Shown: piece by piece, positions 9,383 through 19,206 of the stretch
Layout of the letters: each line of letters opens with the position of its first letter
Position numbering within the stretch: position 1 is the first letter of the stretch
Assembly (NCBI RefSeq): GCF_000027325.1
Contig: NC_000908.2
Span: 90,001 to 122,000, forward strand
Source: Mycoplasmoides genitalium G37
Lineage (GTDB): Bacteria; Bacillota_I; Bacilli_A; Mycoplasmatales; Mycoplasmoidaceae
Reading direction: 5' to 3'
DNA length: 32,000 nucleotides
Made by a program: the position numbers and the translations under genes
The notes under the pieces: model-generated
The model's database searches: none
Told to the model about the DNA's origin: nothing
What the model saw: only the letters and a program-made list of their open reading frames with translations

Positions 9383-12300
9383 ATGAAATTAAGTACAATA
9401 ACTACTATCTGCTTGTCAATATCTGGTGCTTTTGGTACTACTGCAATTGCTTTACCAACTACAGTAGCATTGTTAAAAAACCACCAACAGCAAAACACTG
9501 AAAAACAACAAAACCCGATTAAAGATATCCGCTTTGGTTTAAACAATGTACAGGTTCCAAATACCATTCCGTTACACCAAACTGTGGTTGAAGTGACCAA
9601 CAACAAAGCAATTGTTGATTACAAAGATGCACCCCAAAAATTCTTTTTAGCTAAAAGTGCGTTAAATAATAAACTCCAAGTTGAGTTTGATAAGTTCTTG
9701 TTAAGAACAGGAGTGATTAATGCTTTAAATGCAGATTTGAAAGAATGGATAGACCAAACATTATTTATCCCCAATCAAAGTTTTTTTGATCTTAGTGCTA
9801 ATAAACTCAATTTAACTTTGTCAAATCAAAGCGAAGTGAGTTTAGATCTTGAGTTTATTTTTACTAACTTTAGTGATAAAAATCAACCATTAAAACTCCC
9901 CTTTGATGGTAGTGTGGTGGTTAATGCTAACGAGTCATACACCTATTCAGTTAAAGCAACACTACAGAAACTAAAAGTATTGACTTATTCAAGAGCAGAT
10001 CATTCTGTAGGGATTAGTTATGCAATACCAACAGTGAGTTTAAATGGCAAAACTCAAAATGACTTTAGTTTTAACCCCTTTAAAAGTAATATTAACTTTG
10101 CTTTCAAAAATGTCTACAATGCTTTAAATCCGTTTGAAGCACAACAATACCTGGTTGGCCAAGGTAAGTTTTTAAACCAAAAAGTTAATGCTGATGATGT
10201 TAAAAATGACATTAATAATCACATTGAAACCCAGTTTAATGTTGCTAAAATCACAGCAACTCTTTTAGGAAAAGCTTTTAAGCAGTTTGGTGAACATAAA
10301 AATGGTCAACCACTTTCACTTTTAAAAGTACTAAGTGGATTAAACAATGAGTTTAAACAACTCTTTAATTATGTCAGACCTGGTTTAGGTGATTTTGTTA
10401 GTGATTTAATCCAAAGCTCCAGTCAATCAAGTAATAAAAAAACTGTTTACCAGCTATTATTTGAAAACAAGACAACAATTATCCACTTGTTGCAAGATCT
10501 TAATATTAGTGAACTGAACTCTGTTTTACCAGTTGTTGATATTTTGTTTGAAGGGATTAACAGTGCAGAATCACTATACCAAAGGATCCAATCATTTAAG
10601 GATTTAATTGTTCCTGCTTTAAAAGCTGATAAGCAACTTAAGAGCTTAGAAGCGATTATTTTAGCAGTTTTAGACAATCCTAATACCTATGTTTTTGATC
10701 TTGTTTACCAAAACAAATCGATTCTGTTTAATTTGTTAAGTGATTTTCTTAAAAACACCGCAAACACTTTACCATTTCTTCAAGAACAGTTTGATATTGT
10801 TAACCACTTATTTGCCAATGAAGCGATCTTTGATCTGTTTTCCAATGCTGACTTTGTTGAGAAGATTGCTGATCTTTTTTTAGCAAAACAAAAGGTACAA
10901 GAAGTTAATAATGATGGAACTAAATCAACAAAAATTGTTGATTCGATTTTAGTTGCTACCCTTAAGGGTTTAGTTGGTGATCAGCTCAGTTCAATCACTG
11001 AACTGTTAAACATCTATATCTTTGAAAATGAATTTTTAAACAGAAATGATAGTAATAGTTCAGTTAAAAAACAACAAACTGATAGTCTAAAAAATCTGTT
11101 TAGCGTAATTGGTGATATTTTAAGTGAGACCAATGTTAACAAGATCACTTTACACGCAGTTAAAAATAATGAACTTCTTTCGTTAGTTGAAACAGCTTCA
11201 ACACTAAAAATTAAACATCTTAATGTTCAATACAAAGTTTTAGTTGATAAGTTTGAATTGAAAAACAGTTTCATTAAGGAACTATTAAATTTTTTCCCAG
11301 ATACTAAAGATATCACCCCAACTATTAAAAAGGTACTGTTTGAAAGTGAAAATTATAAAACACTCCGTAAGAAGTATGAAAATGAAGGGTTCCCAGGTTA
11401 TCACTGGGCTAAGTTCATTGTCCCAGGTACCTTCAATTCTGCTGAAAACACTTTCTATTCTGCTATTGATAAAACTAAATCAATTCGCGATCTGTTTGCT
11501 GACATGTTATTTGGTAAGAGTTTAGAGAGTGTTAATGACAGTGATAGTTTTATCAAAATTAATGGTTCATTTACATTAAAGTACCACGGTGATAACTTAA
11601 ATTTACTCCCTAACTACCACTCATTAATCACTAAGAATGTTGGTTATCAAATAGTTAATGTTAATTTTCATATTGATGCAAGATTGCTAACTGCAGAACT
11701 ACAAAACACGGTATTTTCAAATCCAAAACCAGTTATTAAATCACCTGTTGAACTCTCCAAATCCTTATTTGAAGTTTGAAAGACTATCTTTGAAAACTCA
11801 GTTAACCAAATCTTAAAAAAAGAATATACTTTCAAAGATAATCTAAAGTTCTTTCCTTTTAAAGCTGATGGCTCCTCGCGCTTAGAATTTGATCTATCAA
11901 AACCTGATCAACGTGTTATTCCTTTTGCTTTTGTTGATGGTTATCAATTCCAACTAAAAAAAGAGTTAATTCCTAACAAAGAAACAAAAAAAGAAGCTAA
12001 TTCTTCACCAGTTTTAAAGCTTTATGATGCAGTTAAAAGAAACGATAGACAATATCGTCCTAATCACCACCATGATGATCTGAGAAACTATCCTAGCCTT
12101 AAATCTCAACTAGAACTTATATTAAACCTTGGTGATAAGCTTAAAGCTAATAATGATTTTATAGATGACACTGTTGTTAATGCTTTGCAATATAAAACTA
12201 GTTTTAAATCTACTCTAAAAGTTAACAGTTTAGGAATTCCTATTAACCTTTTCTTTTTCACATTGTGACTTAAATTTAACTTAGAAATTCCAATTGACGG

Positions 12301-12457
12301 TTCATTAACATTAACATCCGTTAATGTTGTTTTCCCATACAGTTTGTATGATACTAGTTCAAATGAATTTACAAGGATAGTCGATCGCTTAAATTTCACT
12401 GATACCAACTTCTATCTAAAAGATGCATTTCCTAATTTCTGGTTTGTTGGTTTCTAG
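9383..12457 (+). CDS. Large surface or membrane-anchored protein, 1024 aa. Homolog of the M. pneumoniae 116-kDa surface antigen P116 (MG075-like)
   Basis: Track ORF 9383-11779 continues in frame through TGA 11777-11779 and 12266-12268 to TAG 12455-12457. N-terminal hydrophobic anchor [26 protein letters not shown] without a canonical lipobox. N/K/L/F-rich with no catalytic motif. Assignment to the P116 family is from recall of gene order and size, not from a search. Confidence 0.85.
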
Positions 12458-12870
12458 AGTAATGAAACTAAACCACTAACTAAACTACCAACTAGATAAA
12501 CAATCAAGTTCATCCACCAAAACCCACTAGTTTTTTGTCTGTAAGTTGCACTTTGATCTTGATATTGATTAAAACTAACTAATGGTTTTGCATAAACACT
12601 ACCTAACTTAAGATATCTGTTAAACTTACTAATTTCATACCGCATTCCATCACAAGTTTTTAAACGGAATATCCCCTGTAAACAAACAAGTAATAAGTTA
12701 ACAAAAAAGCTAGTTAGTACTGAATTTTTAACAACCACTGTAAAATTGGTTGACTTGTGAAAATAAATAGTAATGTTTAAGATCAAAAAGAAAAGGATTA
12801 GATAAAATACGCTAACAACTATCCCACCATACTCAGCTTTATTACTGTTTTTGTTTTGATTTAAAACCAT
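12454..12870 (-). CDS. Small hypothetical integral membrane protein, 138 aa, about 3 TM segments (MG076-like)
   Basis: ATG (complement of 12868-12870) is preceded by an in-frame TAG. Hydrophobic stretches [39 protein letters not shown] and [21 protein letters not shown]. The only minus-strand gene in the window. Its stop (complement of 12454-12456) overlaps the stop of the P116-like gene. Confidence 0.7.
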
Positions 12871-13103: not shown

Positions 13104-14327
13104 ATGTTCAAGTATATTCTTAAACGATTAGGACTAGCAGTAGTTGCGATGTTTATCGTAATGTCTATAGTCTTCTTTTTAGTGAACGCTACTGGTAATG
13201 TTCCCTTGTCAGCCACTTCTGCAAGAGATATTGCTGCAGTGCAAGCACAACTACAAGAGTTTGGGTTTAATGACCCTATTATAGTTAGGTATTTTCGCTA
13301 TTGAGCTAAGCTATTTTCCTTTCAAGCTGATGCTTTAGGAATTTATTATGCAAACCCTAACCAAACAATTGGTGAGATTGTGTTTGCAAGAGTACCAAAT
13401 ACCTTATATGTGGTTTTAATCTCTTTTTTAATTGGTTCATTGCTAGGGATCTTTTTAGGGATGGTTTCAGGATTGAATAGAGGGAAGTTTTTAGATGCAG
13501 CAATTAATGTGTTGGTAGTTTTATTTGTATCTATTCCTTCATTTGTAGTGGGATTAGGGTTACTTAAACTAGCAGGATTTTTAAATCTACCACCACGGTT
13601 TATTAACTTTGATGATGCTTTTTTTAGCTTTGATCGTTTCTTGCTTGCATCAATTATCCCGATCCTTTCATTGGTCTTCTATTCATCAGCTGCTTTTACA
13701 TACAGGATTAGAAATGAGGTGGTGGAAGTGATGAATCAAGACTATATTAAAACTGCAAAAAGTAAGGGACTTGGGATGTTTGCTGTAGCTAGGTATCATA
13801 TCTTTAGAAACTCGATTATTCCTTCTATTCCCTTGTTTGTATTTGGAATCTCAGGTGCTTTTTCAGGTGGATTTATTATTGAGTCTTTGTTTGGAGTACA
13901 AGGGGTATCTAGGATCTTAATTGATTCAGTGCAAGTTAATGAAACTAACATGGTAATGTTTAATATCTTGTTTATCCAAGGGATTCCCTTATTAGCAAGT
14001 GTCTTTATTGAATTTATCTATGTTTTAGTTGATCCTAGAATTAGGATTGCAAATAGTTCTAATGTTAGCTTATTAACTAAGTTAAAGTTCTTAAGTTCAA
14101 GACACCAATGGTTAATGAAGTGAAACAAGATTAACAGTGATAATGCCCAAAATATTGTGTTTAACTCGCCACTGCACCACCAGCTATTAGAACTCAATGC
14201 AATTGATTACAAAACAAAAACAGTTCAACTAACAACTGAACAAAAAACTGCTCTCAATATCAGTGCAACTGCTAACTTTATCTTACTTGGTAACAAGTGT
14301 TTAAAACTCAAAACAATCCATGGATAG
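13104..14327 (+). CDS. oppB: Oligopeptide ABC transporter permease OppB (407 aa) with a C-terminal extension
   Basis: Track ORFs 13104-13304 and 13380-14123 share one frame, join via TGA 13302-13304, and extend past TGA 14121-14123 to TAG 14325-14327. Typical N terminus MFKYILKRLG. Permease core ends at the usual LVDPRIRI (about 14046), followed by 92 further codons. Confidence 0.9.
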
Positions 14328-15450
14328 AAATAAAAGTTTTGACCCTAACTTATTTAAAAGGGTTGATATCAACTTATTAAAGCGAAATGATCAGCTTATT
14401 GGTAAACCAACTACCAATTCAATAGAAATTATCAAGCGCTTGTTTCAAAACAAGTGGGCCATCTTATTTTTTCTTTTAATAGTTGTTATTGTGCTATTAG
14501 CAATTATTGTGCCTTTAACTTCCCCTTTTTCAGCAGTAACTCCTGTTTCAACCAATGCCTTAGCACAAAATCTACCACCACGGTACTTATGGCATAAACC
14601 AGGTGACATTTTAGTTCATAAGATTACAGCAAGATCAATTGCTGAAATCTCTCAAGCTAGTGGAGTTTTAGTAGGAACATTACCTAGTGCAAATAGTAAT
14701 CCCTTAGCAACTAATGTCCAGTATGATATTGCTCCTTTTCAACTCCAAGAATTGCGTAATTATTTCCCTTTATTGGGGACTAATGGACTTGGGATTGATA
14801 TTTGAACCTTGTTGTGAGCTTCTGTTGCCAAGTCATTGTGAATTGCAGTAGTAGTAGCAATTATAGCAATGGTGTTTGGAACCATTTATGGAGCGGTTGC
14901 TGGAAGCTTTGTTGGACATATGGCTGATAACATTATGAGTAGGATCATTGAGATTATTGATATAGTCCCTTCTATTCTTTGAATTATTGTCTTAGGAGCT
15001 ACATTCCGCTTTGGTGGGGTTAAACAATTTGATGATAGTGTTGTAATCTTTACTTTAATCTTTGTGTTTTGAACATGACCTGCTACTACAACCAGAATTT
15101 ACATTTTGAAAAACAAAGATACAGAGTACATCCAAGCAGCTAAGACCCTAGGGGCACACCAAATCAGAATTATCTTTGTTCATATGTTACCTGTTGTATT
15201 TGGGAGATTAGCTGTTGTGTTTGTTAGTTTAATCCCAGCAGTTATTGGTTATGAAGCTTCCTTAGTTTTCCTTGGGTTAAAACCAGCTACTGATATTGGC
15301 TTAGGGGCACTTTTAAACCAAGTAACTTCAAGTGATAATGTAGCTTTAATCTTAAGTTCGATTGTTAGCTTTGCAGTTTTAACAGTAGCAGCTAGAACAT
15401 TTGCTAATGCTTTAAATGATGCAATTGACCCTAGGGTTGTAAAACGATAA
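14320..15450 (+). CDS. oppC: Oligopeptide ABC transporter permease OppC (376 aa)
   Basis: Track ORFs 14320-14805 and 15106-15450 share one frame. The 300-nt gap between them contains only TGA codons as apparent stops. Motifs YIQAAKTLGA (EAA loop region) and C-terminal DAIDPRV. Overlaps oppB by 8 nt. Confidence 0.9.
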
Positions 15451-15451
15451 A

Positions 15452-16660
15452 ATGGCACTTAAAAGAAGTAATTTCTTTGTTGATAAAGACCAACAACTAA
15501 AGGATAATTTGATCTTAGACATCACTGATTTACATGTTAACTTTAAGGTTAAAGATGGGATCTTACATGCTGTTAGAGGGATTGATCTTAAGGTAGAGAG
15601 GGGTAGTATTGTAGGGATTGTAGGTGAATCAGGCAGCGGTAAATCAGTGAGTGTTAAATCAATTATTGGTTTTAATGACAATGCACAAACTAAAGCCAAA
15701 CTGATGAACTTTAAAAACGTTGATATTACCAAACTAAAGAAACACCAGTGGAAGTATTATAGAGGGACATATGTCTCTTATATTTCCCAAGACCCATTGT
15801 TTTCTCTAAACCCAACAATGACGATAGGAAAACAAGTAAAAGAAGCGATTTATGTGGCTTCAAAAAGAAGGTATTTCCAAGCTAAATCAGACTTAAAATT
15901 TGCTTTATCAAATAAGGAGATTGACAAAAAAACTTATAAAAGTAAACTAAAAGAGATCAAACAAACCTACCAACAAAAAATAAAACCTATCAATGTAGAG
16001 AAAAAAACCTTAGAGATCCTGCAGTTCATTGGTATTAATGATGCCAAGAAACGTTTAAAGGCATTCCCAAGTGAGTTTTCAGGAGGGATGAGACAGAGAA
16101 TTGTGATTGCTATTGCAGTAGCAACTGAACCTGATTTAATTATTGCTGATGAACCTACTACTGCACTTGATGTAACTATTCAAGCTAAGGTATTAACTTT
16201 AATTAAACAACTCCGTGATCTACTTAATATCACTATTATCTTTATTAGTCACAATATCTCTTTAATTGCTAATTTCTGTGACTTTGTTTATGTTATGTAT
16301 GCAGGGAAAATTGTAGAACAGGGTCTGGTTGAAGAGATCTTTACAAATCCACTCCATCCCTATACATGGGCATTGATTTCTTCAATTCCTGAACAGAAAG
16401 ATAAAAACAAACCACTAACTTCTATCCCTGGAGTTATTCCTAACATGTTAACCCCACCAAAGGGTGATGCTTTCGCTAGTAGAAACCAATATGCTCTAGC
16501 AATTGACTTTGAATACCATCCACCCTTTTTTGAAGTTACTAAAACCCATAAAGCAGCAACTTGATTGCTGCATCCCCAAGCCCCTAAAGTTGAACCACCT
16601 CAAGCGGTTATTGATAACATTACCTTAACCAAAAAAGCACTGCAATTTAAAGATCAATAA
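15452..16660 (+). CDS. oppD: Oligopeptide ABC transporter ATP-binding protein OppD (402 aa)
   Basis: Walker A GESGSGKSV, Q-loop ISQDP, signature FSGGMRQR, Walker B LIIADEPTTALD, H-loop ISHN. Extends past TGA 16562-16564 to TAA 16658-16660. Confidence 0.93.
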
Positions 16661-19206
16661 TGGAAAACCAAAACACAAAAAAACCACTTGTTAATGTTAA
16701 GGCTTTGAGCATGATGTTCAAGGTCAGAGGAACTCTTTTTAAAGCCCTTGATGAAATTGGTTTTACTGTTAATGAAGGGGACTTCTTTGGGGTTATTGGT
16801 GAGAGTGGTAGTGGTAAATCAACCACGGGAAAATGTTTGATTAGATTAAACATTCCTAGTGGTGGAAAGATTGAGATTGCCAACCACTTACTCTCAGGAA
16901 AAAAACTTACTAAAGAGAATAACCAGTGGTTAAAACAAAACATCCAAATGGTGTTTCAAGACCCTTATTCATCTATTAACCCTACTAAAAATGTGCTAAC
17001 TGTGATTTCAGAACCGCTGGTAATTAGTAAAACTGTTTTTGGGGAAACAAAACAATACTTAAAGAGTTTGCAAAAGCTCTCTTTTAAAGTAAAGAAAACA
17101 TTGTTAAGGAATGATATTGAACTTGAAACCAAGTTTCACAATAACTTTTTTAAAACCGTTATTAAGCAAATTAATGAATCATTGTTTAACTTTGAAGATC
17201 TTGATTACAAGGATTTAAAACCATCACATTTAAGGCAAAGAATCATAAATGAAACAGATAAATTCATTGAAAAAATTAGAAGTGAGTTTGCCCTTTTTTA
17301 TGATTTTTATGCTAACCAATCAGTACCCTTGCAAAAGGCATTAGATGATGCGAATTCCTCTTTAACACCATCTAGTGTTATTGAGTTAAAAAACCAGTTA
17401 AAAGCATTACAAAAACAAGCAAAGATTTCAAAGGCAGCATGGGATATTTTACAAGCCCTAAAGCAAAACCAAAAGGAGTTGAAAGATTATGAAAATTATG
17501 TCCATTTTGAACTCCAAAAAAAGCCACGAATCTATCTTAATACCTGACTTTTAACAACCAAAAGCTACATTAAAGATTCCAAGCAAAACATGCAGCTTAC
17601 TGATGATATCTTTGCTTTTTCATATAACAGTATGGTTGACAAGAAAAGAAACTTGGTTTTAATTCTTTCTAAATACTATAAGCTGTTACCTTATTTCTAT
17701 GACCAATCAGTATTTGATAATGCTGATCAATTTGATGAAATTGCTAACCTTATCTTTTTTGATTTAGTTGAAACATTGCTTGGTGTAACTAGTTTATTTA
17801 ATGATGCATTAGCAGCTGATAAAGTCCCACTAATTAAGTTTGCTAAGTTCTTAAATAAGTTATGTGACTTGCGCTTTTTAACCTTAAAAAAGAGCTTTAA
17901 AAAAACAAGAGTAAGTTGTAGCTTTAGTTTTAACAGTGAACCTGAAATCTTGTTTGCCAACAGCTGCTATGATTTGCAACAAATGCCTCAAATCATTAAA
18001 CCCTTTTGAGAGAAGCTTTTTAATGAACAGAACTACCAAAAGATTATTGATTCAGTTTCAAGACTGAATGTAATGATTGCAAATTACATTACCAAAGCTT
18101 TTGAAATTAAAAAAACTATTGATGAAAAACTAAGGGAGTTTAAACAACAAAATTTAGCTTTAAAAAAAGCTTATTCAGCTAACAAGAAAAGTGAGGCAAA
18201 CAAAGCTTCCATTAATGAGTTAAAAGTCAATTTAAAAACACTTAAAAAACAGCTTAAACAAGAGAAAAATACTACTAAAAAACAATCAAAAAAGGAATTA
18301 AAACCACTTTTAAAAGAACACCATACTGCTTTAAAACTCCATGATGAGTTTAACCATGATTTACGCAAGTGGTTCAAAAAACTTAACTTTATGGTTAAGA
18401 AATACAACCGACTGGAAAACAGCCAGAAAAAGTTTTGTTTAGTTAAAAAGTTAAAAGCGCTTTTCAAAAAACAGGATGAAACACTGCAAAGTGAATTAAG
18501 ACCAAAACTAAAAACATTTGGTGTAATTAACTTTGAGTACAAACGTGCAGTCAAAGAGTCCAATGTCTTTCGATTGGTGCATTTTGCTAAAAATATCTTT
18601 AAACCATTCTTGTTTTTTAACCTCACCAAGATTTTTATGAGAAATAAGGTCTATGAAGCACTTGATAGTGTTGGTTTAAAAAGAGAACATGCTTACAGAT
18701 ACCCCCATGAATTTTCAGGCGGACAAAGACAAAGAATTGCTATTGCCCGTGCTTTAATCACTAAACCCAAACTGATTATTGCAGATGAATTGATTAGTGC
18801 ACTTGATGTTTCTATCCAAGCCCAAGTTATTAACATCTTGAAAGACTTGGCTAAAAAACACAACTTAACTGTGCTTTTCATTGCCCATGATTTATCAATG
18901 GTGCAAACTGTTTGTAACCGTTTGATCATTATGCATAGGGGCAAGATTGTTGAACGGGGCAGTGTGGATGAGATCTTTTCAAATCCAGTTCATCCCTACA
19001 CCCGTTCCCTAATAAAAGCATCTCCTAAGTTAAGCAAAATCAATGTTGATCTCGCTTCTTTTGATGAAAACTTCACTTATGATAGTGATTATTCACTAAC
19101 CAATATGCCCTTTTATATTAAAGTTCCTAACAGTGAAGAACATGAACTTTACTGTACTCAAAAGCAATTTGATAGTTGAATCAAAGAGGCTACGCCGATA
19201 AATTAA
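16660..19206 (+). CDS. oppF: Oligopeptide ABC transporter ATP-binding protein OppF, 848 aa, with a very large insertion in the nucleotide-binding domain
   Basis: Track ORFs 16660-17547, 17590-18009 and 18073-19179 share one frame, joined by TGA 17545-17547, 18007-18009 and 19177-19179. Stop TAA 19204-19206. Walker A GESGSGKST (16798-16824) and Q-loop VFQDP (about 16957). The signature FSGGQRQR begins only at 18712. Then Walker B LIIADELISALD and H-loop IAHD. Confidence 0.92.

What the first reader, a model, noticed from the sequence alone, without database searches (positions are those of the whole stretch)
17050..18625. About 525-codon Lys-rich insertion splitting the OppF nucleotide-binding domain
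In OppF, Walker A (16798-16824) and the Q-loop (about 16957) lie almost 1.8 kb from the ABC signature FSGGQRQR (starting at 18712). In ordinary OppF proteins, Q-loop and signature are about 60 residues apart. The intervening sequence is one open frame once two UGA-Trp codons are read through. It is rich in K, L, E, N and Q, with long heptad-like stretches such as KVNLKTLKKQLKQEKNTTKKQSKKELKPLLKEHH. That suggests an extended helical or coiled-coil module inserted into the helical subdomain that contacts the permease coupling helices. I recall no function for this module. Keeping about 1.6 kb of extra sequence in a minimal genome argues it is not junk. The standard-code track shows it as three separate ORFs, which hides the architecture.
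Basis: partly seen in the sequence, partly recalled or inferred. Interest (0 to 1): 0.65.

Follow-up and report, generated by a model that had tools for sequence, protein, structure and literature searches.

The report
Giant helical insert splitting mycoplasma OppF
The ATP-burning subunit OppF of the peptide importer in Mycoplasma genitalium really is interrupted by a roughly 535-residue all-helical domain of unknown function, which many mycoplasmas share; it is a real, conserved but uncharacterised appendage of an essential transporter.

Summary
Read with UGA as Trp, 16660..19206 (+) is a single 848-codon oppF gene (M. genitalium MG_080). Its ABC ATPase domain is intact but split. Walker A and the Q-loop lie at residues 47-100. 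The signature motif, Walker B and H-loop lie at 685-743. About 535 residues (125-660; 17032..18639) are inserted between the first and second helices of the helical subdomain.

The insert is not junk, not a split gene and not a mobile element. At least 58 protein clusters (50% identity) from Mycoplasmoides, Malacoplasma, Metamycoplasma and Mycoplasmopsis have the same architecture, and their inserts are detectably homologous. AlphaFold2 predicts the insert as all-helical with high confidence, with a conserved bundle and a variable hairpin of 54- and 80-residue helices. Nothing in Pfam, NCBIfam or the PDB matches it.

Lysine richness and net charge are not conserved, and I found no significant heptad signal. 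Published data show that M. pneumoniae OppF is essential, expressed and cross-linked into the Opp complex in cells.

The function remains untested. My best guess is a rigid cytoplasmic arm on the rotating helical subdomain that braces or regulates the transporter. Unrelated large inserts sit at the same loop in Opp ATPases of other bacteria.

The parts
16660..19206 (+). oppF coding sequence (848 codons plus TAA), read with UGA as Trp. Its ATG overlaps the oppD stop codon (TAATG).
   Evidence: It is 99% identical to the M. genitalium protein P0001. NCBIfam best hits are DppF/OppF-type families.
16660..17031 (+). N-terminal part of the ATPase domain (residues 1-124): Walker A at 16798-16824, Q-loop Q100 at 16957-16959, and the first helix of the helical subdomain.
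   Evidence: Pfam ABC_tran matches residues 30-140. PDB alignments cover residues 8-124. This part is 86% identical to M. pneumoniae.
17032..18639 (+). The insert (residues 125-660, about 535 aa): an all-alpha module with no match in Pfam, NCBIfam or the PDB.
   Evidence: Gly+Pro is 1.35% (family median) against 8.9% in the rest of the protein.
17032..17430 (+). Proximal helices of the insert (residues 125-257). The start of this segment is conserved across the family.
   Evidence: AF2 helices 125-138, 142-179, 188-207, 210-233 and 239-255. Conservation profile. 46% identical between M. genitalium and M. pneumoniae.
17431..17895 (+). Conserved helical core of the insert (residues 258-412; four long helices). 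This is the best-conserved and most confidently predicted part.
   Evidence: Mean pLDDT is 89-96 per block of 10 residues. Family consensus is Y.KS..T.KS.IK..KQ. 57% identical between M. genitalium and M. pneumoniae.
17896..18024 (+). Short linker with a small beta-hairpin and short helices (residues 413-455). This region is prone to indels across the family.
   Evidence: (gap occupancy).
18025..18432 (+). Two very long consecutive helices (residues 456-509 and 512-591), read here as a hairpin.
   Evidence: 37% identical between M. genitalium and M. pneumoniae. Low family conservation.
18433..18639 (+). Returning helices (residues 592-660), with the conserved motif AI.FEYK leading back into the ATPase domain.
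   Evidence: F625 and E626 are at least 90% conserved. AF2 helices 609-642 and 645-670.
18640..19035 (+). C-terminal part of the ATPase domain (residues 661-792): second helix of the helical subdomain, signature FSGGQ at 18712-18726, Walker B at 18772-18789, H-loop His743 at 18886-18888, and the start of oligo_HPY.
   Evidence: 98% identical to M. pneumoniae.
19036..19203 (+). C-terminal tail (residues 793-848). It has a single Cys, so it cannot carry the four-Cys [4Fe-4S] site of E. coli DppF.
   Evidence: The E. coli cluster and its role are described in PMC12136057.
17545..17547 (+). In-frame TGA encoding Trp296.
   Evidence: It aligns with a Trp in M. pneumoniae (LNAWLLTTK).
18007..18009 (+). 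In-frame TGA encoding Trp450.
   Evidence: It aligns with a Trp in M. pneumoniae (PYWEKLF).
19177..19179 (+). In-frame TGA encoding Trp840.
   Evidence: W840 is invariant in 36 homologues.
15452..16660 (+). oppD, the partner ATPase. It carries about 38 extra residues at the equivalent loop.
   Evidence: Pfam ABC_tran plus oligo_HPY. Q-loop-to-signature distance is 96 against a normal 56-58.
13104..15450 (+). oppB (13104..14327) and oppC (14320..15450), the permease genes of the same operon.
   Evidence: Pfam BPD_transp_1 and OppC_N.

Best explanation
SHOWN. 16660..19206 encodes one polypeptide, the OppF ATPase of the OppBCDF peptide importer of M. genitalium. All catalytic motifs are intact. 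A module of about 535 residues is spliced into the variable loop between the first two helices of the alpha-helical subdomain. The module is an ancient, vertically inherited, fast-evolving domain. It is shared by OppF of the pneumoniae-group and hominis-group mycoplasmas. It is predicted to fold as a purely helical structure: conserved base helices, a conserved bundle of about 155 residues, and a variable hairpin of two helices of 54 and 80 residues. By helix geometry the longer helix is about 12 nm long.

INFERRED. The module is anchored by both ends to the subdomain that grips the permease coupling helix. That subdomain rotates about 20 degrees per ATP cycle in the E. coli homologue. So the insert most likely acts as a rigid cytoplasmic arm of the transporter. 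It would be a structural or regulatory appendage that braces the OppC-OppF/OppD assembly or docks a cytoplasmic partner, and so either senses or restrains helical-subdomain rotation. It is not an enzyme and not a nucleic-acid binder.

My probabilities: about 0.95 that it is a real, selected, folded domain of a single OppF polypeptide; about 0.35 for the specific brace or regulatory-arm role.
For: Single gene:
- UGA as Trp is pervasive in the window, and W840 is invariant.
- M. pneumoniae OppF was detected with 15 peptides.
- It is cross-linked in cells within an OppA-OppC-OppF complex.

Insertion site:
- PDB alignments stop at residue 124 and resume at 655-663. Only about 10 residues lie between these points in M. 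tuberculosis OppD and E. coli DppF.

Conservation:
- 36 clusters at 90% identity and at least 58 clusters at 50% identity share the architecture. Walker A to Q-loop is exactly 53 residues, and Q-loop to signature is 469-641.
- A profile built from the M. genitalium and M. pneumoniae inserts alone finds other inserts at E = 5e-10 to 3e-4. A second-round profile finds untrained members at 1e-160 to 1e-7.
- M. genitalium and M. pneumoniae are 49% identical over 535 residues with almost no gaps.
- Named taxa include M. alvi, Malacoplasma penetrans, Mycoplasmopsis anatis, M. phocimorsus and Metamycoplasma neophronis.

Fold:
- AF2 gives pLDDT 83.8 and pTM 0.74 for the full protein, and pLDDT 85.2 for the insert alone. 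The insert is all helix.

Essentiality:
- MPN218 had 1 or 0 transposon insertions in 2044 bp, depending on the read threshold. Non-essential genes of similar size had about 900-1000. MG_080 is also scored essential.

Mechanical context:
- In E. coli, DppF pairs with DppC and the helical subdomain rotates about 20 degrees (PMC12136057).
Against: - No experiment or computation here addresses what the insert does.
- I could not model the OppBCDF complex or inspect model coordinates, so the geometry relative to membrane, OppD or OppC is unknown.
- The hairpin is poorly conserved in sequence, length and charge. That argues against a specific binding surface there.
- Unrelated inserts sit at the same loop in other lineages. 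This shows the site is simply permissive.
- Transposon intolerance follows from OppF being essential. It does not show that the insert itself is needed.
Confidence: 0.6

Rival explanations
1. Tolerated expansion segment. The loop between the first two helices of the helical subdomain is structurally permissive. A helical insertion arose once, grew, and is kept only because deleting it cleanly is hard and it must stay folded so as not to poison an essential ATPase. It has no function of its own.
For: - The insert evolves much faster than the ATPase core: 49% identity against 86-98%.
- The hairpin varies in length, sequence and charge.
- At least two further large insert types sit at the same loop. 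Neither shows detectable sequence similarity to this one. One is in the OppD-slot proteins of Clostridia, Bacilli and Treponema MAGs (hhalign probability 0.3%). The other is the JCVI-syn3-type OppF/OppD models of 649 and 561 positions, whose insert region does not match this one.
- No known domain or motif is present.
Against: - Every family member seen keeps at least about 420 inserted residues, despite strong genome reduction.
- The 258-412 core and both junctions are conserved. They carry enough covariation for pLDDT above 90 from only 23-36 sequences.
- No insert-less close relative appeared among the top hits, although the search was biased towards insert-bearing proteins.
Confidence: 0.25
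2. SMC/Rad50-like or BAR-like effector arm. The basic, elongated helices bind DNA/RNA or the acidic inner leaflet, or tether the transporter to the Triton-insoluble cytoskeleton, and so couple ATP hydrolysis to a second cellular job.
For: - The topology mimics SMC/Rad50: a long helical excursion between the Walker A/Q-loop half and the signature/Walker B half.
- The best Foldseek hits, though not significant, are condensin Smc, Rad50, the MukB elbow and F-BAR domains.
- The M. genitalium insert has a net charge of about +37 to +39.
- M. pneumoniae OppF co-purified with the Triton-insoluble attachment-organelle core fraction (PMC4669176). It elutes in the void fraction on size-exclusion chromatography.
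Against: - Foldseek gave no hit at E <= 0.001, and TM-scores were about 0.1.
- The Pfam SMC_N score is 19 bits, below the 40-bit cut-off.
- Positive charge is not conserved: -16 to +51 across the family, +9 in M. pneumoniae, and the median equals that of the rest of the protein.
- There is no significant heptad periodicity.
- The family occurs in species without an attachment organelle.
- The authors of PMC4669176 themselves treated OppF as carry-over from a large complex.
Confidence: 0.1
3. Split gene, pseudogene or mobile insertion. The TGA codons end translation, giving separate polypeptides, or the 1.6 kb is an intein or an IS remnant.
For: Under the standard code the frame is broken at 17545 and 18007.
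Against: - TGA is used as a sense codon in 17 of the 26 long ORFs in the window.
- The Trp codons align with Trp in orthologues, and W840 is invariant.
- Neither half of the ATPase domain could work alone.
- The whole length is conserved in dozens of species.
- There are no terminal or internal repeats.
- There is no Hint, endonuclease or transposase signal.
- The M. pneumoniae orthologue is expressed and essential.
Confidence: 0.01

Closest known systems
Canonical OppF/DppF ATPases of PepT-type ABC importers (E. coli OppBCDF 8Z21, E. coli DppBCDF 8Z1V, M. tuberculosis OppABCD 8J5Q)
   Same: All catalytic motifs are present, as is the oligo_HPY C-terminal region and the operon with oppB, oppC and oppD. 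Sequence similarity reaches E = 1e-54 to 1e-86 over both halves of the domain.
   Different: The domain is interrupted by about 535 residues where the solved proteins have about 10. The C-terminal domain lacks the four Cys that bind the stabilising [4Fe-4S] cluster in E. coli DppD/DppF.
SMC / Rad50 / RecN-type ABC ATPases
   Same: A long helical excursion separates the Walker A/Q-loop half from the signature/Walker B half of one ABC domain. Long-coiled-coil proteins of this kind are the top Foldseek hits, though weak.
   Different: There is no significant structural or sequence match. No hinge or zinc-hook signature was found. No regular heptads were detected. The protein belongs to a membrane importer, not a DNA-handling machine.
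ABCF proteins (EttA-type 'arm' in the first ATPase domain); this comparison rests on my own knowledge
   Same: A helical hairpin is inserted into the alpha-helical subdomain between Q-loop and signature. It projects from the ATPase to contact a partner.
   Different: The ABCF arm is about 45 residues, and this insert is about 535. ABCF proteins have two fused ATPase domains, no permease, and act on ribosomes. Sequence similarity was not tested directly, because Pfam has no model for the arm.
JCVI-syn3 / Mycoplasma mycoides OppF and OppD (NCBIfam NF043078 with 649 positions, NF043079 with 561 positions)
   Same: These are mollicute Opp ATPases whose models are 230-320 positions longer than ordinary OppF/OppD. 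The C-terminal half starts at model positions 471 and 345, which implies an insert in the same region.
   Different: Only the ATPase halves match: 244 bits against the 800-bit cut-off. The M. genitalium insert and 22 related inserts give no hit to these models. So the inserts are either unrelated or diverged beyond recognition.
Expanded Opp systems of Clostridia, Bacilli and Treponema MAGs (loci L003, L010, L013, L015, L031)
   Same: A large, helical insert with low Gly/Pro content lies after the Q-loop of an Opp-type ATPase. The Q-loop-to-signature distance is 316-449.
   Different: The insert is in the first (OppD-slot) ATPase. Four of the five (L003a, L010a, L013a, L015a) form their own sequence family at 23-45% identity; the shorter L031a insert matched none of them. 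A profile of all five inserts shows no relation to the mycoplasma insert (hhalign probability 0.3%). Their second ATPase carries a different insert before the Q-loop.

Membership tests
ABC transporter ATPase, Opp/Dpp (PepT) type, OppF | Walker A, Q-loop, LSGGQ signature, Walker B with catalytic Glu, D-loop and H-loop His | tested here: met
   GESGSGKS at 47, Q100, FSGGQ at 685, IIADE at 706, SALD, and H743. Pfam ABC_tran scores 89.6 bits against a 25-bit cut-off.
ABC transporter ATPase, Opp/Dpp (PepT) type, OppF | oligo_HPY C-terminal region | tested here: met
   PF08352 scores 28.4 bits against a 27.1-bit cut-off, at residues 764-793.
ABC transporter ATPase, Opp/Dpp (PepT) type, OppF | Encoded in an operon with the OppB and OppC permeases and a second ATPase, OppD | tested here: met
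   oppB 13104..14327, oppC 14320..15450 and oppD 15452..16660, supported by Pfam BPD_transp_1, OppC_N and ABC_tran.
ABC transporter ATPase, Opp/Dpp (PepT) type, OppF | Reaches the curated equivalog score of an OppF/DppF model | tested here: not met
   PRK15079 OppF scores 234.5 against a cut-off of 540. DppF scores 233.9 against 660. PRK11308 scores 264.8 against 408. The shortfall reflects divergence and the split domain, and no other family scores higher.
ABC transporter ATPase, Opp/Dpp (PepT) type, OppF | Contiguous ATPase domain, with Q-loop to signature about 56-60 residues | tested here: not met
   585 residues here, against 56-58 in ordinary relatives.
ABC transporter ATPase, Opp/Dpp (PepT) type, OppF | Four-Cys [4Fe-4S] site in the C-terminal domain (as in E. 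coli DppD/F and M. tuberculosis OppD) | tested here: not met
   There is one Cys after the HPYT motif. All 135 insert-bearing relatives scored have 0-1 Cys there. Many insert-less relatives also have 0-1, so this is not specific to the insert (PMC12136057).
SMC/Rad50-like ABC ATPases | Pfam SMC_N or a Rad50-type model above its cut-off | tested here: not met
   SMC_N scores 19.3 bits against a 40-bit cut-off. Among the 23 related inserts scanned against NCBIfam, one weakly matches a Rad50 model and one an archaeal SMC-related model.
SMC/Rad50-like ABC ATPases | Long antiparallel intramolecular coiled coil with heptad periodicity, ending in a hinge or hook | tested here: inconclusive
   AF2 gives adjacent helices of 54 and 80 residues. 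A crude heptad score peaks at 0.65, below the 95% level of 0.775 for shuffled sequences. The best Foldseek E-value is 6e-3 with TM about 0.1. Model coordinates could not be inspected.
JCVI-syn3-type OppF (NCBIfam NF043078) | Equivalog cut-off of 800 bits, including the model's insert region | tested here: not met
   244 bits, from the ATPase halves only. The insert alone gives no hit.
Intein or mobile-element insertion | Hint/endonuclease or transposase domain, flanking repeats, patchy distribution | tested here: not met
   No such domains were found. No significant repeats were found. The insert was present in all relatives sampled.

The most novel reading that the evidence does not exclude
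The variable loop of the helical subdomain in Opp-type ATPases may be a recurrent site where giant helical 'arms' evolved independently. I see at least three sequence-unrelated types: mycoplasma OppF, syn3-type OppF/OppD, and the OppD of Clostridia and Bacilli. Some other systems also carry inserts before the Q-loop in OppF. Together these would define a class of armed ABC importers. In them, the ATP-driven rotation of about 20 degrees of the helical subdomain would swing a lever of about 10 nm that does mechanical or signalling work in the cytoplasm. That is the SMC/Rad50 principle used by a nutrient transporter.
Probability: 0.12. Interest if true: 0.8.

Novelty: new variant of a known kind. 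Interest (0 to 1): 0.5.

Why it matters
OppF is scored essential in both M. genitalium and M. pneumoniae, the classic minimal-genome models. Yet 63% of its length is a domain with no family, no structural relative, and no description in the papers I could search. Minimal-cell models treat Opp as an ordinary importer.

If the insert braces or regulates the transporter, it would be a new way of controlling an ABC importer from within the ATPase domain. It would also be a lineage-specific feature of an essential protein in human and veterinary pathogens.

If it is a neutral expansion, it is a striking case of 1.6 kb of tolerated ballast in a genome of about 580 kb. Either answer can be reached with one in-frame deletion experiment.

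Tried and rejected
- The word-indexed protein search with the insert alone found only M. genitalium and M. pneumoniae. With the insert alignment it found only P0001. The 8000-candidate limit was presumably filled by unrelated proteins, so a search was wasted.
I ran it with the full-length alignment instead.
- The genome-contig scan with the insert alignment had no stretch conserved enough to search with. With the full-length alignment it was flooded by ordinary OppD-OppF pairs. It did, by accident, reveal insert-bearing Opp systems outside the Mollicutes.
- A sequence profile of the insert against the PDB gave only chance hits. Foldseek on the full model matched only the ATPase domain. Foldseek on the insert model gave nothing at E <= 0.001.
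- The canonical heptad coiled-coil idea was not supported by a crude test.
- Internal duplication was rejected.
- A conserved basic surface for DNA or membrane binding was rejected, because charge is not conserved.
- I tested whether the insert compensates for the lost [4Fe-4S] cluster. All insert-bearing proteins lack the Cys ligands, but so do many insert-less ones, so the idea is compatible but not specific.
- Homology to the syn3-type insert and to the non-mollicute OppD inserts was not detected.
- The 1999 M. hominis opp operon paper could not be read.
- No tRNA genes were found in the window.
- Literature searches for a description of the insert found none.
Full report
**What the window is**

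The window has 33% G+C. Under table 4 it resolves into a compact array of long ORFs. Under table 11 most of them are broken by TGA: there are 43 in-frame TGA against 33 TGG in 26 ORFs. The ORF 16660..19206 (+) translates to 848 residues. It is 99% identical to the Mycoplasmoides genitalium protein P0001 and 64% identical to an 851-residue protein (P0002) that I take to be the M. pneumoniae orthologue, from its 816,560-bp contig and full collinearity.

The gene sits in an oppB-oppC-oppD-oppF operon, downstream of a P116-family gene. Its ATG overlaps the oppD stop codon as TAATG.

**Checking the observation**

- Walker A is at 16798.
- Q-loop Q100 is at 16957.
- The signature FSGGQRQR starts at 18712.

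The Q-loop-to-signature distance is 585 residues.

Alignments to solved structures cover residues 8-124 and then resume at 655-663. These structures were M. tuberculosis OppABCD, E. coli DppBCDF and E. coli OppBCDF. The solved proteins have only about 10 residues between those two points.

So the insert is about residues 125-660 (17032..18639). It lies between the first helix after the Q-loop (NVLTVISEPLVI) and the second helix of the helical subdomain (RNKVYEALDSVGL). From my own knowledge, this region is described as structurally diverse among ABC ATPases.

It encodes W840, which is invariant in 36 homologues. That is direct support for read-through.

**Is it real and selected?**

The full-length search returned 36 clusters (90% identity) of 790-995 residues. 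Each has one Walker A, one signature, and a Q-loop-to-signature gap of 505-739.

An exhaustive profile search of 1.84 billion representatives put at least 58 clusters (50% identity) with this architecture among the top 150. In all of them the Walker A-to-Q-loop distance is exactly 53 residues, and the Q-loop-to-signature distance is 469-641.

Named members include:
- M. alvi
- Malacoplasma penetrans (two paralogues)
- Mycoplasmopsis anatis
- M. phocimorsus
- Metamycoplasma neophronis

M. bovis oppF2 is 2403 bp (PMC4045577). On my reading of these taxa, the insert therefore predates the split of the pneumoniae and hominis groups.

The inserts are homologous rather than merely similar in composition. 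A profile built from only the M. genitalium and M. pneumoniae inserts hits other inserts at E = 5e-10 to 3e-4. The second-round profile then hits sequences it was not trained on at 1e-160 to 1e-7.

Identity between M. genitalium and M. pneumoniae, by region:

| Region | Identity |
|---|---|
| N-terminal ATPase half | 86% |
| C-terminal ATPase half | 98% |
| Whole insert | 49%, almost without gaps |
| Insert core (258-412) | 57% |
| Long hairpin (456-591) | 37% |

**What it looks like**

AlphaFold2, run with 36 family sequences, gives mean pLDDT 83.8 and pTM 0.74 for the whole protein. For the insert alone, with 23 sequences, mean pLDDT is 85.2.

The insert is entirely helical apart from one small beta-hairpin. 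It has four parts:
- proximal helices at 125-255;
- four long helices at 258-412, with pLDDT 89-96, which are also the best-conserved segment;
- a short linker prone to indels;
- two consecutive helices of 54 and 80 residues (456-509 and 512-591), followed by helices that return to the ATPase domain through the conserved AI.FEYK motif.

Across the family the insert has a median of 1.35% Gly+Pro, against 8.9% in the rest of the protein.

No Pfam or NCBIfam model covers it. A sequence profile against the PDB gives only chance hits. Foldseek on the insert model finds nothing at E <= 0.001. The weak top hits are generic long-helix proteins with TM-scores near 0.1: condensin Smc, Rad50, the MukB elbow, dynein stalks and F-BAR domains.

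There are no internal repeats and no flanking repeats.

**What it is not**

- It is not a split gene. The evidence is the genetic code, the invariant Trp, and protein-level data.
- It is not an intein or a mobile element.
- It is not a conserved basic surface. Net insert charge runs from -16 to +51 across the family. It is +9 in M. pneumoniae against +37 here, and the median per residue equals that of the rest of the protein.
- It is not shown to be a canonical coiled coil. A crude heptad test peaked at 0.65, below the 95% level of 0.775 for shuffled controls.

**Published evidence on the M. pneumoniae orthologue, MPN218**

- In the saturating transposon study, the central 2044 bp of the gene had 1 insertion at the lower read threshold and 0 at the higher. 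Non-essential genes of similar size had about 900-1000. Both MPN218 and MG_080 are scored essential (PMC4332154 supplements).
- This rules out free tolerance of disruption. It cannot isolate the insert's own role, because any insertion there also removes the signature, Walker B and H-loop half of an essential ATPase.
- MPN218 was detected with 15 peptides and elutes mainly in the largest size-exclusion fraction.
- In-cell cross-linking detected an OppA-OppC-OppF complex (bioRxiv 10.1101/2020.02.28.970111).
- It also appeared in the Triton-insoluble attachment-organelle core fraction, which the authors attributed to carry-over of a large complex (PMC4669176).
- In M. synoviae, the MS-H vaccine strain differs from its parent at OppF codon 156 by a frameshift, and field re-isolates revert to the parental sequence (PMC9749132).

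**Mechanism**

What is shown is the anatomy. A folded helical module is anchored by both ends in the subdomain that contacts the permease coupling helix. In E. coli DppBCDF, DppF pairs with DppC, and the helical subdomain rotates about 20 degrees between the inward-facing and outward-facing states (PMC12136057).

I infer that the insert behaves as a rigid arm moving with that subdomain. The conserved base and core, together with a variable distal hairpin, fit a structural or regulatory appendage better than an enzyme or a specific nucleic-acid binder. Such an appendage would brace the complex or offer a docking surface that senses or restrains rotation.

One idea I tested concerns the C-terminal [4Fe-4S] clusters of E. 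coli DppD and DppF. Loss of those clusters disassembles the complex. All 135 insert-bearing OppF proteins scored have 0-1 Cys in that region. So do many insert-less relatives. The compensation idea is therefore compatible with the data but not specific to the insert.

The main rival is a tolerated expansion segment with no function of its own.

**A wider pattern, found by accident**

Among the loci fetched from genome contigs, several standard-code bacteria carry Opp operons with a large helical insert after the Q-loop of the first ATPase (the OppD slot). The Q-loop-to-signature distance there is 316-449. Their second ATPase has a different insert before the Q-loop, with a Walker A-to-Q-loop distance of 141-337. 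The bacteria include Bacilli MAGs, Faecousia, Gallimonas and a Treponema MAG.

Four of those five OppD-slot inserts (L003a, L010a, L013a, L015a) form their own family at 23-45% identity; the shorter L031a insert matched none of them. A profile of all five shows no relation to the mycoplasma insert (hhalign probability 0.3%).

NCBIfam's JCVI-syn3 OppF and OppD models have 649 and 561 positions, which implies further inserts. The M. genitalium insert does not match them either.

M. genitalium OppD itself has about 38 extra residues at the same loop. OppB has a C-terminal tail of about 90 residues.

So this loop is a recurrent insertion site in Opp ATPases. That can be read in two ways: the site is simply permissive, or 'armed' Opp transporters are a convergent solution.

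**Novelty and verdict**

The gene and its length have long been in the databases. I found no description of the insert in the searchable literature, and no family model for it.

I class it as a new variant of a known kind. It is an Opp-type ABC ATPase with a giant, lineage-specific helical domain inside the helical subdomain. It resembles SMC/Rad50 and the ABCF arm in topology only.

Function remains open. Interest is moderate.

Noticed in passing
window 15860-16000 (oppD residues ~137-183): OppD also has extra sequence at the equivalent loop of its helical subdomain. Its Q-loop-to-signature distance is 96 residues against a normal 56-58. The extra stretch is Lys-rich (YFQAKSDLKFALSNKEIDKKTYKSKLKEIKQTYQQKIKPINVEKK). 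The OppD of a related Mycoplasma sp. MAG (L001) has a similarly long Walker A-to-signature distance (148 against 151 here; ordinary OppD about 114), whereas Metamycoplasma neophronis (L007) is near normal at 117.
   Followed up: partly
window 14046-14324 (oppB residues 315-407): OppB continues for about 90 residues beyond its permease domain (Pfam BPD_transp_1 ends at residue 314). An ordinary OppB in locus L002 is 314 aa. If this tail is cytoplasmic, it is a candidate partner for the OppF insert.
   Followed up: partly
loci L003, L005, L010, L013, L015, L031, L038, L061 (genome contigs): Bacteria using the standard genetic code (Bacilli MAGs, Faecousia, Gallimonas, Treponema and Sphaerochaeta MAGs) have Opp operons with large helical inserts. 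The first ATPase has an insert after the Q-loop. The second has an insert before the Q-loop. OppA (820-980 aa) and OppC (448-659 aa) are also enlarged. Four of the five OppD-slot inserts are homologous to each other (the L031a insert matched none), and a profile of all five is not detectably related to the mycoplasma insert.
   Followed up: partly
window 19036-19203 (OppF C-terminal tail) and oppD C-terminus: The C-terminal domains of M. genitalium OppD and OppF have 0 and 1 Cys. They therefore lack the four-Cys [4Fe-4S] site that stabilises E. coli DppBCDF. All 135 insert-bearing OppF relatives scored also have 0-1 Cys there.
   Followed up: yes
window 9383-12457 (+): The 1024-residue ORF upstream of the opp operon matches the Pfam P116 family (PF23707) end to end. 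No OppA-like gene lies between it and oppB. Only a 138-codon ORF on the minus strand (12454..12870) lies there.
   Followed up: partly
window 18171-18629 (-): A 152-codon antisense ORF lies entirely inside the Lys-rich part of the insert. It is most likely a by-product of the A-rich coding strand (AAA read as TTT on the opposite strand) and not a gene.
   Followed up: no
window 16658-16662 and 14320-14327: Adjacent opp genes overlap. The oppD stop and oppF start share TAATG, and oppB and oppC overlap by 8 nt. This is consistent with translational coupling across the operon.
   Followed up: no
OppF residues 351, 414, 476 (window 17710-17712, 17899-17901, 18085-18087): The window's OppF differs from the database representative of M. 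genitalium (P0001) at three residues: V/L, K/N and Y/D. All three fall inside the insert and none in the ATPase core. The numbers are too small for a test.
   Followed up: no
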